NCBI GenBank assembly: GCA_035602395.1
Contig: DATNMH010000052.1
Location: 2,829-66,828, forward strand
Length of the DNA: 64,000 nt
From: Candidatus Acidiferrum sp.
GTDB lineage: Bacteria; Chloroflexota; Dormibacteria; CF-121
Direction: 5' to 3'
Shown: one piece after another, positions 8,292-9,838 of the stretch
Layout: every line of letters begins with the position of its first letter
Position numbering within the stretch: the stretch's first letter is position 1
Translations under genes and position numbers: made by a program
The notes under the pieces: model-generated
What the model was told of the DNA's origin: nothing
The model's input: the letters and a program-made list of their open reading frames with translations, nothing else
The model's database searches: none

Positions 8292-9767
8292 TTAGTCGCC
8301 GATCAGGGTCCGAACTGTCCCGGTCGTCCAATCGGCGACCGCGATCCGGTGGTTGTTCGTGTCGGCGATGTAAAGGCCGTCGACGCCGGCACAGACACCA
8401 CCGGGCTCGCGGAAGGCCGCCGAATGCCCGTGGCCGTCCGCCCGTCCCGCGACACCGCTCCCGAGCCAGGTCGTAACCGCACGGCGTCGTGCGTCCAGTC
8501 GCTTGACCTTGTTGTTGTAGCTATCGGCCACATACAGGGTGTGGTCCCGGCTGCTGATCCCAAGCGGATGCTGGAGGCGGACCGCGTCGCCTTCGCCGTC
8601 CTGGTCGCCAAAGACGAACAGGTCCTCCCCGACCAGGGTGGTCACATGGCCCGTCTTCAGGTCGATATCGCGCACGGCGCTGACCTCGGAGTCCGCGACG
8701 TACAGGTGCCCATCGAGAATCGTCAGTCCGCTCGACTGGGCGAACCACGCCTCAGCCTTCGGTCCATCGAGCAGACCCTCACGTCCGGTTCCGGCAAACG
8801 GCGCAACCGTGCCGTGGTCGAGGTCCAGCGTCCAGATCTGGTGAGTGCCGGCCATCGCGATGTAGAGGAGGCGATCCGCGAGCGCCACGTCCCAGGGCGA
8901 GCTCAGCGCCGCCGACCGGCCGGGCCCACCCTTGCCCGCTTGGAGGGCTTGCTCCCCCGTGCCCGCGACGGTCGTGACGAGACCAGACTGGAGGTCGATA
9001 GCGCGGATCGCGTGGTTTTCCGTGTCCGCCACGTAGAGGGTCGAGCCGGATCGCGCCATTCCCTGGGGTTGCTGAAACGTGGCGCGGTCCGCCGGCCCAT
9101 CTGAGAACCCCGGTACCCCGGAGCCGTAGGTGCGCCGGATCACGCCGTCGAACCCGGCCGAGACGATGCGGTGATGGTTGGTGTCGGCGATGAACAATGA
9201 GTCTGTTGTCGCCAGCACTTTGCCGGGGAAGCTCAGGGTTCGCGCCGGTTCGCGGATTTCCTCGAGCGCGATCGGCGACGCCGAGCCATGGAGCAGCCCG
9301 CGGTCCTCGAACTCCTTGAGCATCCCGGAAACGACCGGATCGAACTGTTCGAAGGGCAATTCGCCCTCGTGCTTTCCGATGACGCGCCCCTCCGGGTCGA
9401 TGAACATCAGCGTCGGCCAGGCCCGACCGCCGAAGCGCTCCCAGACCTTGAAGTCGCGGTCATTCACCACCGGGTGCTCGATGCGATAACGAAGCACCGC
9501 TTCCCGCAAGTTGGCGGTCTCGCGCTCGGCCGGGAACTTGGGCGAATGGACGCCGACCACGATGACACGGTCCCCATACTTGCGTTCGATCTTCCGCAAC
9601 TGCGGAAACGTATGCATGCAGTTGATTCAACAGAACGTCCAGAAATCGATGATCGCCAGCCTCCCGCGCAGGTCGGCGATGTGCAGCGGCCGGGAAACGT
9701 TCAGCCAGTCGAGCCCATCCGGGAAGTCGGGAGCACGAACCGTGCCCGCGTAGGTATGAACGGCCAT
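8292..9767 (-). CDS. thioredoxin-fold / six NHL-repeat protein with in-frame TGA (9627-9629), candidate selenoprotein
   Basis: Track ORFs 9627..9815 and 8292..9617 share one frame. Read-through gives [19 protein letters not shown]. NHL repeats present (YVADTENHAIRAIDL, YIADTNNHRIAVAD and others). Start chosen at ATG 9767. Confidence 0.75.
9592..9607 (-). promoter_or_regulatory. candidate bacterial SECIS-like hairpin
   Basis: RNA UUCCGC-AGUU-GCGGAA: 6-bp GC-rich stem with a G/U-containing loop. It starts 19 nt 3' of the UGA. Confidence 0.45.
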
Positions 9768-9838
9768 CCCGGTCAATGGTACCGACGCGGTGCGGAACTT
9801 TTCCCGGCGTCCCACGTCGTAGAGGGAGAAGCGTTCAG

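What the first reader, a model, noticed from the sequence alone, without database searches (positions are those of the whole stretch)
8292..9815. In-frame TGA at the first Cys of the CxxC motif of an NHL-repeat thioredoxin-fold protein: candidate selenoprotein (C-U-I-N-C)
Two minus-strand track ORFs (9627..9815 and 8292..9617) share one reading frame. They are separated only by TGA (9627-9629) plus three codons.

Read-through gives ...[11 protein letters not shown][TGA][31 protein letters not shown]..., a thioredoxin-fold active site. As I recall it, NHLRC2-like thioredoxin/NHL proteins carry W-T-(F/Y)-C-C-x-N-C here. That would put the TGA exactly at the nucleophilic Cys of CxxC.

Cys/Sec exchange at redox motifs is the hallmark of bacterial selenoproteins. 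The downstream part carries six NHL repeats. I do not recall this architecture in published bacterial selenoprotein family lists, but I cannot search.
Basis: partly seen in the sequence, partly recalled or inferred. Interest (0 to 1): 0.8.

Follow-up and report, generated by a model that had tools for sequence, protein, structure and literature searches.

The report
Selenocysteine form of bacterial NHLRC2-like oxidoreductase
One gene for a thioredoxin-like plus NHL-propeller protein, a bacterial relative of human NHLRC2 and plant SOQ1, has a conserved in-frame TGA in place of its active-site cysteine, followed by a conserved RNA hairpin, so it almost certainly encodes a selenoprotein that public databases split into two unrelated-looking genes.

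Summary
On the minus strand a single reading frame runs from ATG 9767 to TAA 8292 and is interrupted only by TGA 9629-9627: ...[16 protein letters not shown].

The selenocysteine (Sec) reading is strongly supported by comparative evidence.
- Full-length homologs, including human NHLRC2 (PDB 6gc1, E 1e-114) and Arabidopsis SOQ1, have Cys at exactly this position (CC[I/V]NC).
- The TGA is present in 82 of 160 related loci. This includes all 45 metagenome loci of 55-92% identity, and also many Chloroflexota, Fervidibacter and NC10.
- The 40 codons upstream of the TGA are under purifying selection in the same frame (pN/pS 0.15).
- A 7-bp hairpin with loop AGUU lies 18 nt after the UGA (window 9608-9591). 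It fits the published bacterial SECIS (Sec insertion sequence) model, shows compensatory changes in 4 of 7 pairs, has frozen synonymous sites, and is absent from the Cys forms.

Not shown: selA/selB/selC/selD in this genome. None is in the window.

Databases annotate the gene as a 46-aa hypothetical protein plus a 441-aa "alkyl hydroperoxide reductase". A 2026 inventory of 119 prokaryotic selenoprotein families lists no NHL/NHLRC2 entry.

Verdict: a real, probably undescribed member of the thioredoxin-fold UxxC selenoproteins.

The parts
8292..9767 (-). Complete coding sequence of the candidate selenoprotein. It is 491 aa, runs from ATG 9767-9765 to the TAA stop at 8294-8292, and has one in-frame TGA. 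There is no signal peptide and no C-terminal domain beyond the propeller.
   Evidence: Searches give the sequence and frame. Searches show the equivalent ATG start on the syntenic contig. One search gives a continuous alignment of residues 10-486 to NHLRC2. One search gives the lengths of the Sec and Cys forms.
9627..9629 (-). In-frame TGA, proposed Sec codon (residue 47). It is the first, nucleophilic position of the UxxC motif.
   Evidence: One search shows the codon. In related loci the position is TGA in 82 and TGC/TGT in 75. It aligns to Cys-90 of the human NHLRC2 CCINC motif.
9618..9632 (-). Active-site motif C-U-I-N-C. The codons are TGT 9632-9630, TGA 9629-9627, ATC, AAC and TGC 9620-9618.
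   Evidence: The resolving Cys is present in every locus in which the motif was found. The residue before U/C varies (C, G, S or A).
9591..9608 (-). SECIS-like hairpin inside the coding sequence. The 5' arm is UUUCCGC (9608-9602), the loop is AGUU (9601-9598) and the 3' arm is GCGGAAG (9597-9591). There are 18 nt between the UGA and the stem, and 25 nt between the UGA and the loop. It encodes F-P-Q-L-R-K.
   Evidence: Searches give the alignment. In one search, 98.7% of cells pair, 4 of 7 pairs have changes on both sides, and 0 of 500 shuffles reach the observed values. In one search the mean MFE is -10.4 kcal/mol in Sec loci against -3.9 in Cys loci. One search shows synonymous sites frozen at codons +7 to +11. 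One search gives the published model it fits.
9318..9740 (-). Thioredoxin-like (TlpA/DipZ/Thioredoxin_8 type) domain, residues about 10-150. The TGA lies inside it.
   Evidence: In one search, PF13905 scores 37.1 bits and PF00578 28.3 bits. In one search it aligns to the NHLRC2, SOQ1 and DipZ Trx-like domains.
8310..9239 (-). Six-bladed NHL-repeat beta-propeller, residues about 177-486.
   Evidence: In one search the Pfam NHL hit has E 3.6e-29. In one search residues 177-486 align to the NHLRC2 propeller crystal structure 6g7w (2e-68) and to SOQ1.

Best explanation

Proposed decoding mechanism:
- UGA 9629-9627 is decoded as selenocysteine.
- An 18-nt hairpin 18 nt downstream (UUUCCGC-AGUU-GCGGAAG) acts as the bacterial SECIS.
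- The hairpin is bound by SelB carrying Sec-tRNA(Sec) while the ribosome is on the UGA.

Proposed protein function:
- The selenolate attacks a substrate disulfide or another oxidised group. A selenenylsulfide then forms with the resolving Cys three residues on.
- The propeller most likely selects the substrate.

What is shown: the frame, the conservation of the TGA, Cys in homologs at that position, purifying selection on both sides, the covarying hairpin, and the homology.

What is inferred: actual Sec insertion, SelB dependence, and the oxidoreductase chemistry and substrate.
For: - The frame and motif are.
- All 120 best database homologs (76-95% identity) are about 441 aa and begin just after the TGA, so the interruption is conserved.
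- TGA is at the site in 35 of 80 GTDB species genomes and 47 of 80 metagenome loci. The rest have TGC/TGT, apart from one locus with TAA and two in which the motif was not found.
- Full-length Cys forms, NHLRC2 and SOQ1 align Cys to the TGA.
- For the upstream 40 codons pN/pS is 0.146. It is 0.098 downstream, and the other two frames give 2.3 and 3.8.
- In the hairpin, 98.7% of cells pair and 4 of 7 pairs have compensatory changes. An example is CCG/CGG changing to CCU/AGG or CCC/GGG. Zero of 500 shuffles reach this, and slid controls give 35-71% pairing.
- Rare codons TTT and TTG, together with CCG and CGG, are fixed in 34-36 of 36 distinct close sequences. Other Pro, Leu and Arg codons nearby vary.
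- Cys-form genes encode IPDLKK instead and lack the hairpin.
- The hairpin meets all four criteria of the published bSECIS model: a 4-nt loop, G in loop position 2 followed by U, 25-nt spacing, and MFE about -9.3 kcal/mol.
- One TGA-form genome, Dehalococcoidia UBA1141 (locus L035), is listed in BSepDB with 49 selenoprotein genes.
Against: - No selA, selB, selD or tRNA-Sec is in the 64-kb window, or in about 2.2 Mb of flanks of related loci, apart from a selB next to a Cys-form gene. The Sec machinery of this organism is therefore unverified.
- No paper linking Dormibacterota with selenocysteine was found.
- There is no Rfam match to the hairpin, although bacterial SECIS elements are poorly covered by families.
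- A whole-segment MFE fold of 81 nt does not stand out from shuffles (z = 0.26). The signal lies in the short conserved hairpin only.
- The closest structurally studied relatives were inactive in the insulin reduction assay, so the precise chemistry is uncertain.
Confidence: 0.87

Rival explanations
1. The UGA is recoded, but not to selenocysteine. The hairpin would promote insertion of Cys (through a SelB-like factor with a Cys-accepting tRNA) or near-cognate read-through (Trp/Arg/Cys). That would give a CxxC or inactive protein without selenium.
For: No Sec machinery could be shown for this genome. No literature tying Dormibacterota to Sec was found. From my own memory, not checked here, SelB-dependent Cys insertion at UGA has been proposed for some bacteria.
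Against: The site is the nucleophilic Cys of a redox motif, which is the classic Sec/Cys pair. The hairpin fits the Sec-specific bSECIS model, including the G-U in the loop. The same form occurs in a genome reported to encode 49 selenoproteins. If Cys were wanted, a TGC codon is one mutation away, and sister lineages use it.
Confidence: 0.06
2. These are two separate products: a 46-aa peptide ending at the TGA and a 441-aa protein started just downstream. This is how current databases annotate the locus. The two would either work apart or assemble non-covalently.
For: Gene callers everywhere emit exactly these two ORFs. An ATG lies three codons after the TGA in the window.
Against: The split would cut a thioredoxin fold between the two residues of its CxxC motif. 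The downstream ATG is not conserved: it is Ile, Ala or Leu in many TGA-form relatives. This model does not explain the covarying hairpin with frozen synonymous sites. No homolog was seen that is split at this point with a different stop codon, except one damaged locus (L071).
Confidence: 0.04
3. The gene is a pseudogene, or the TGA is a sequencing or assembly error, in a gene that originally had TGC/TGT.
For: A single transversion (TGC/TGT to TGA) would produce it. Two related loci do carry additional stops (L071 and L123).
Against: The TGA is present in 82 loci from independent assemblies and several phyla. The identical ORF is on 5 contigs. Purifying selection acts on both sides. There are no frameshifts or other stops in the window copy.
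Confidence: 0.02

Closest known systems
Human NHLRC2 (PDB 6gc1 and 6g7w; mutated in FINCA disease)
   Same: [quoted passage not shown] The alignment is continuous over residues 10-486 (E 1.3e-114). The active-site motif is in the same place (CCINC against CUINC), at the N-terminus of helix alpha-1 facing the inter-domain cleft.
   Different: NHLRC2 has Cys, not Sec. [quoted passage not shown] NHLRC2 showed no activity in the insulin reduction assay, and its biochemical function is unresolved.
Arabidopsis SOQ1 lumenal region (PDB 7djj)
   Same: It has the same Trx-like plus NHL core (E 2.1e-113) and the same CCINC motif. Its Trx-like domain has been shown to hold a redox-active Cys pair.
   Different: SOQ1 is membrane-anchored, with a HAD domain, and is lumenal. 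[quoted passage not shown] The window protein has no such domain, no membrane anchor, and Sec instead of Cys.
Thioredoxin-fold UxxC bacterial selenoproteins in published lists: thioredoxin, Prx-like thiol:disulfide oxidoreductase, thiol:disulfide interchange protein (PF13098), thiol-disulfide isomerase-like (cd02966) and redoxin family protein (PF08534)
   Same: All have Sec at the first position of a UxxC motif in a thioredoxin fold, a Sec/Cys pair with Cys homologs, and a SECIS hairpin just downstream in the ORF. The Trx-like domain here gives weak or marginal hits to the same Pfam models.
   Different: Those families are defined by a Trx-fold domain model alone. None is described as fused to an NHL propeller or as an NHLRC2/SOQ1 orthologue. 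Whether databases such as BSepDB already hold this gene under one of those generic names could not be checked, because no supplement is held.
DipZ / TlpA / ResA periplasmic thiol-disulfide oxidoreductases
   Same: These are the closest single-domain structural relatives of the Trx-like domain (DipZ E 3.7e-20, ResA and TlpA 1e-6 to 1e-8). DipZ has SCINC at the same site.
   Different: They are exported, are reduced by membrane DsbD/CcdA-type proteins, use Cys only, and have no propeller. The window protein is leaderless and so presumably cytoplasmic.

Membership tests
Bacterial selenoprotein (SelB/SECIS-dependent UGA decoding) | In-frame UGA that aligns with Cys in homologs (a Sec/Cys pair) | tested here: met
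   Across 160 related loci the site is TGA in 82 and TGC/TGT in 75. NHLRC2 and SOQ1 have Cys there.
Bacterial selenoprotein (SelB/SECIS-dependent UGA decoding) | Protein-level conservation on both sides of the UGA in one frame | tested here: met
   In one search, pN/pS is 0.146 upstream and 0.098 downstream, and the off-frame controls are above 2. In one search the alignment to NHLRC2 is continuous across the site.
Bacterial selenoprotein (SelB/SECIS-dependent UGA decoding) | SECIS stem-loop just downstream that fits the bSECIS model: loop of 3-9 nt, stem of 4-16 bp, G in the first two loop positions, 16-37 nt spacing, and MFE of -7.5 kcal/mol or lower | tested here: met
   The model is quoted from PMC13188914. 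Here the loop is AGUU, the stem is 7 bp, the spacing is 25 nt, and the MFE is -9.2 to -9.4 kcal/mol. Covariation is, frozen synonymous sites, and absence from Cys forms.
Bacterial selenoprotein (SelB/SECIS-dependent UGA decoding) | selA, selB, selC (tRNA-Sec) and selD in the same genome | not testable with these tools
   None is in the window or in the flanks of TGA-form loci. The rest of the genome is not available. There is indirect support only: locus L035 comes from Dehalococcoidia UBA1141, which BSepDB reports to have 49 selenoprotein genes.
Bacterial selenoprotein (SelB/SECIS-dependent UGA decoding) | Selenium demonstrated in the polypeptide (75Se labelling or mass spectrometry) | not testable with these tools
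   This needs an experiment. Candidatus Fervidibacter sacchari PD1, which the record title gives as a strain with a complete genome, carries the TGA form (locus L034).
NHLRC2 / SOQ1 family | N-terminal Trx-like domain with a CC(I/V)NC motif at the CxxC position | tested here: met
   The window has C-U-I-N-C, with U in place of the second Cys.
NHLRC2 / SOQ1 family | Six-bladed NHL beta-propeller directly after the Trx-like domain | tested here: met
   One search gives the Pfam NHL hit. In one search, residues 177-486 align to the propeller structures 6g7w and 7djm.
NHLRC2 / SOQ1 family | C-terminal beta-stranded domain with two conserved Cys (animal and plant architecture) | tested here: not met
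   The protein stops 5 residues after the propeller. Sec forms have a median of 447 residues after the Sec, against 592 in Cys forms. Biterova et al. state that only a small number of bacterial homologs have the mammalian architecture. This therefore makes it the bacterial two-domain subtype, not a non-member.
Listed generic Trx-fold selenoprotein families (thiol:disulfide interchange protein PF13098; redoxin family PF08534; thiol-disulfide isomerase-like cd02966) | Match to the defining domain model together with a UxxC motif | tested here: inconclusive
   UxxC is present. PF08534 scores 23.3 bits, below its cut-off of 26.6. PF13098 appears only as a precomputed or weak hit. PF13905 (37.1 bits) and PF00578 (28.3 bits) pass. 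cd02966 could not be scanned, and the representative sequences of those families are not available here.
Alkyl hydroperoxide reductase / peroxiredoxin (the NCBI name of the 441-aa fragment, HXN04777.1) | Significant match to a peroxiredoxin/AhpC equivalog model | tested here: not met
   NCBIfam gives only sub-threshold hits to ResA, StoA and TlpA thiol-disulfide oxidoreductases, and no peroxiredoxin model. The Pfam AhpC-TSA hit is marginal (28.3 against a cut-off of 26) and is weaker than Thioredoxin_8. The best structural relatives are NHLRC2, SOQ1 and DipZ.

The most novel reading that the evidence does not exclude
This would be a widespread selenoprotein family not yet catalogued: Sec-containing orthologues of human NHLRC2 and plant SOQ1. 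It is found in soil Dormibacterota, many Chloroflexota (notably Dehalococcoidia), Fervidibacter and NC10, and it arose at least twice from Cys forms. Because natural Sec/Cys exchange marks catalytic redox residues, it would identify the second Cys of the CCINC motif as a true nucleophile. NHLRC2-type proteins would then be genuine oxidoreductases, despite their negative insulin assays.
Probability: 0.55. Interest if true: 0.7.

Novelty: new member of a known kind. Interest (0 to 1): 0.62.

Why it matters
1. Annotation. A gene present in hundreds of soil and subsurface genomes is systematically mis-called. It appears as a 46-aa hypothetical protein plus a truncated "alkyl hydroperoxide reductase / NHL repeat / YncE" protein. 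A family-specific model with a Sec position would correct this.

2. Selenium biology. It would add a family, and possibly a phylum (Dormibacterota), to the map of selenium use in soil bacteria.

3. Function of NHLRC2 and SOQ1. The biochemical role of the CCINC motif is debated. [quoted passage not shown] Later work on SOQ1 found a redox-active Cys pair in its Trx-like domain. A natural Sec at the first CxxC position is independent evolutionary evidence for catalytic redox chemistry at that residue, in a protein linked to a fatal childhood disease. The Sec forms, or U/C swaps, offer a handle for trapping substrates.

Tried and rejected
- Whole-segment folding of 81 nt around the UGA gave no signal against shuffles (z = 0.26). 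The evidence comes only from the short conserved hairpin seen by comparison.
- Rfam searches, at gathering thresholds on the whole window and a permissive search on 9450-9750, found nothing at the site.
- ARAGORN found no tRNA-Sec in the window, in 36 Sec-type loci, or in all 160 loci.
- tblastn with E. coli SelA, SelB and SelD against the window plus 2.2 Mb of loci found only a selB near a Cys-form gene (L076) and two partial GTPase hits.
- A scan of the window, and of 0.52 Mb of Dormibacterota-clade flanks, for other TGA-interrupted coding regions found no second candidate selenoprotein.
- NCBIfam has no specific model for the protein.
- The exhaustive representative search was dominated by giant NHL-repeat proteins. 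It was useful only for picking out full-length Cys forms.
- A search with the N-terminal 78 residues, aimed at finding any database entry annotated full-length with U, returned only fragments and the 46-aa ORFs. This is suggestive but not conclusive.
- Supplementary tables of BSepDB are not held, so I could not see whether the gene is stored there under a generic family name.
- Literature searches for NHLRC2 with selenocysteine, selenoprotein with NHL, and Dormibacter with selenocysteine returned nothing relevant.
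Full report
**1. The observation**

On the minus strand the sequence reads ...ATC GAT TTC TGG ACG TTC TGT TGA ATC AAC TGC ATG CAT ACG TTT CCG CAG TTG CGG AAG.... This translates as [23 protein letters not shown].

- The two listed ORFs, 9627..9815 and 8292..9617, are in one frame.
- The TGA occupies 9629-9627.
- The most likely start is ATG 9767-9765 (MAVHTYAGTV...). 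This gives a 491-aa product that ends at TAA 8294-8292.
- The same ATG is used for the upstream ORF on a syntenic 111-kb contig. Forty-six residues before the TGA is the median among relatives.
- In a scan of the 64-kb window for TGA codons with coding-like sequence on both sides, this site was one of two hits. The other, at 30169, is antisense to a long plus-strand ORF and looks spurious.

**2. What the protein is**

- Pfam finds NHL repeats (3.6e-29) and a Thioredoxin_8 / AhpC-TSA type domain.
- Against solved structures, residues 10-486 align without a break to human NHLRC2 (6gc1, 1.3e-114) and to the lumenal region of Arabidopsis SOQ1 (7djj, 2.1e-113). [quoted passage not shown]
- In that alignment the window's F-W-T-F-C-[TGA]-I-N-C sits on NHLRC2's F-F-T-Y-C-C-I-N-C. 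The TGA therefore replaces the second Cys of the CCINC motif, which is the first Cys of the CxxC.
- The window protein has no signal peptide and stops just after the propeller.

**3. Is the TGA conserved, and what do homologs have there?**

The 120 best database homologs (76-95% identity) are all about 441 aa and cover only 90% of the query. Every one was called from the Met after the TGA.

More distant representatives fall into two kinds:
- proteins that again begin at MH(V/T)xPQLRK;
- full-length proteins with DFWTY[C/G/S]-C-INC.

I fetched DNA for 80 species genomes (GTDB) and 80 metagenome contigs and read the codon directly.

| Codon at the site | Genome loci (80) | Metagenome loci (80) |
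|---|---|---|
| TGA | 35 | 47 |
| TGC/TGT | 43 | 32 |
| TAA | 1 | 0 |
| Motif not found | 1 | 1 |

- The best 45 metagenome loci, L086-L130 (55-92% identity), all have TGA; this includes the whole close clade.
- The TGA forms come from Candidatus Dormibacterota (closest genome, 89% identity), many Dehalococcoidia including closed chromosomes, Thermomicrobia, Caldilineaceae, Chloroflexia, Candidatus Fervidibacter sacchari PD1 and NC10.
- The Cys forms come mostly from Acidobacteriota, Planctomycetota, Binatia, a cyanobacterium and others.
- The residue before the site varies (C, G, S or A). The Cys three residues after it is present in every locus in which the motif was found.

**4. Is the upstream part translated in the same frame?**

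Among 46 close-clade sequences, the 40 codons before the TGA give pS 0.449 and pN 0.066, so pN/pS is 0.146. The 40 codons after it give 0.098. The same upstream DNA read in the other two frames gives 2.3 and 3.8.

The Met three codons after the TGA is Ile, Ala or Leu in many TGA-form relatives. A conserved re-initiation site is therefore absent.

Splitting here would also cut a thioredoxin fold inside its active-site motif.

**5. The RNA element**

A hairpin follows the UGA after 18 nt. It reads UUUCCGC-AGUU-GCGGAAG and occupies window 9608-9591. It coincides with the codons for F-P-Q-L-R-K, and it is present at the same position in almost all TGA-form loci.

Covariation, on an alignment of 34 distinct TGA-form sequences:
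- 98.7% of cells form standard pairs.
- Four of seven pairs show changes on both sides.
- Zero of 500 shuffles reach the observed values on any measure.
- Sliding the 3' partner by 1-3 columns drops pairing to 35-71%.

Examples of compensatory changes:
- CCG...CGG becomes CCU...AGG, through synonymous changes in both Pro and Arg.
- CCG...CGG becomes CCC...GGG, at the cost of an Arg-to-Gly replacement.
- UUCC...GGAA becomes UGCC...GGCA or UCCC...GGGA.

Synonymous-site evidence: within the close clade overall synonymous divergence is high (pS about 0.45). Yet codons +7 to +11 are fixed as TTT, CCG, CAG, TTG and CGG in 34-36 of 36 distinct sequences. TTT and TTG are otherwise rare in these genes, and other Pro, Leu and Arg codons nearby use three to five synonyms.

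Cys-form genes encode I-P-D-L-K-K at this place and have no hairpin. The mean MFE of the 30-nt segment is -3.9 kcal/mol, against -10.4 in TGA forms.

The published bacterial SECIS model requires four things (PMC13188914):
- a 3-9 nt apical loop on a 4-16 bp stem;
- a G in the first two loop positions, usually followed by G or U;
- 16-37 nt between the UGA and the loop;
- an MFE of -7.5 kcal/mol or lower.

The element here has a 4-nt loop A-G-U-U, a 7-bp stem, 25 nt of spacing and an MFE of about -9.3 kcal/mol. All four criteria are met.

Exceptions:
- NC10 genomes (L065, L074) and one metagenome locus (L133) carry the TGA with a different hairpin at a similar position.
- In a rough neighbour-joining tree the NC10 pair sits among Cys forms, apart from the large Sec clade. 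This suggests more than one Cys-to-Sec conversion.

**6. What could not be shown**

- No tRNA-Sec, selA, selB or selD lies in the window or in the flanks of any TGA-form locus. With 64 kb of one genome this says nothing either way.
- I found no paper connecting Dormibacterota with selenocysteine.
- There is indirect support. One TGA-form locus (L035) is from Dehalococcoidia bacterium UBA1141. The BSepDB paper lists that genome among the ten bacteria richest in selenoprotein genes, with 49.
- Rfam has no match.

**7. Mechanism proposed**

Shown: a single ORF with a conserved UGA at the catalytic Cys position, a covarying SECIS-like hairpin, and NHLRC2/SOQ1 homology.

Inferred:
- SelB carrying Sec-tRNA(Sec) binds the hairpin and inserts Sec at codon 47.
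- The resulting C-U-I-N-C site works as a selenol/thiol redox pair, with Sec as the attacking residue and Cys50 as the resolving residue.
- The propeller provides substrate binding in the inter-domain cleft.

The Sec forms are leaderless, two-domain proteins of about 491 aa. Most Cys forms carry a signal peptide or membrane anchor and an extra C-terminal domain of about 145 aa. The Sec subfamily is therefore probably cytoplasmic. It cannot use the route from the Trx-like domain to the C-terminal domain proposed for SOQ1, where methionine sulfoxide reductase activity is assigned to that C-terminal domain. Its substrate is unknown.

The neighbouring genes give no functional clue. They are a LuxR/GerE regulator, a small lipoprotein-like ORF, pirin and a luciferase-like monooxygenase. 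They are syntenic within the clade.

**8. Comparison with what is known**

- Mechanistically this is a standard thioredoxin-fold UxxC selenoprotein with an in-ORF bacterial SECIS.
- By descent it belongs to the NHLRC2/SOQ1 family, in the bacterial two-domain architecture.
- A 2026 review that compiles 119 prokaryotic selenoprotein families and subfamilies has no NHL, NHLRC2 or propeller entry. The BSepDB, deep-Sep, GOS, 2016 ISME J and 2022 review texts do not mention NHL either.
- A search for NHLRC2 together with selenocysteine found nothing relevant.
- Generic families in those lists could already contain the gene unnoticed: thiol:disulfide interchange protein PF13098, thiol-disulfide isomerase-like cd02966 and redoxin family PF08534. 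I could not check this.
- In sequence databases the gene is split. The window's 441-aa fragment is NCBI HXN04777.1, "alkyl hydroperoxide reductase [Candidatus Acidoferrum sp.]". The 46-aa upstream ORF is a [quoted passage not shown] found on 43 contigs.
- NCBIfam has no model for the family.

**9. Verdict**

- I put 0.87 on genuine Sec decoding.
- The remainder is split between non-Sec recoding (0.06), two separate products (0.04) and a pseudogene or error (0.02).
- It is a new member of a well-known kind, not a new mechanism. A selenoprotein specialist would not be astonished by another Trx-fold UxxC family.
- Its interest comes from three things: its breadth in under-studied soil phyla, the systematic mis-annotation, and what it implies for the disputed redox function of NHLRC2 and SOQ1.

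Noticed in passing
window 8292-9617 (NCBI HXN04777.1); L003: The taxonomic labels disagree. The identical 441-aa fragment is deposited as "[Candidatus Acidoferrum sp.]", an Acidobacteriota name. The closest species genome (89% identity) is a Candidatus Dormibacterota MAG, and the 98%-identical 46-aa upstream ORF is labelled Candidatus Dormibacteraeota. True Acidobacteriota homologs are Cys forms at about 50% identity. The Acidoferrum label is probably a binning or naming error.
   Followed up: partly
L065 10112-10165; L074 4324-4377; L133 (TGA about 5800): The NC10 genomes and one metagenome locus carry the TGA with a different downstream hairpin: CCAGAGC-UGGAC-GCUCUGG in NC10 and CUCGC...GCGAG in L133. 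The NC10 pair groups with Cys forms in a rough NJ tree. This suggests independent Cys-to-Sec conversions, each with its own SECIS.
   Followed up: partly
L076 10575-12476: A full-length selB homolog (31% identity to E. coli SelB over residues 1-605) lies about 8 kb downstream of a Cys-form gene in a Pyrinomonadaceae MAG. So a Sec-capable genome keeps the Cys form of this protein.
   Followed up: no
L071 about 1468-1500; L123 about 8946-9000: Two relatives look damaged. L071 (Thermomicrobiales) has TAA instead of TGA at the site, plus another in-frame stop upstream. L123 has TAG in the hairpin loop, where CAG-UUG has become CAG-UAG. They are either pseudogenes or assembly errors.
   Followed up: no
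L099 and L100, about 10139-10190: Two close relatives have Pro changed to Ala (CCG to GCG) in the hairpin. This breaks one base pair and weakens the fold from -9.4 to -5.2 kcal/mol, while the TGA is kept.
   Followed up: no
window 9839-10225 (+): A divergently transcribed 128-aa ORF starts MKRFIASITLSIALAAC..., which is a lipoprotein-type signal with a lipobox-like LAAC. It has no Pfam match and is conserved in position next to the selenoprotein gene on related contigs.
   Followed up: partly
window 36175-40014 (+) and 53547-56192 (+): There are runs of overlapping, same-strand, high-GC3 ORFs in different frames. They could be frameshifted genes or ordinary high-GC shadow ORFs. I did not examine them.
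   Followed up: no
window 30169 (-): This is the only other TGA in the window with coding-like composition on both sides (...IICSSC-TGA-RSIGLV...). It is antisense to the long plus-strand ORF 27923-30613, so it is most likely a shadow-frame artefact.
   Followed up: partly
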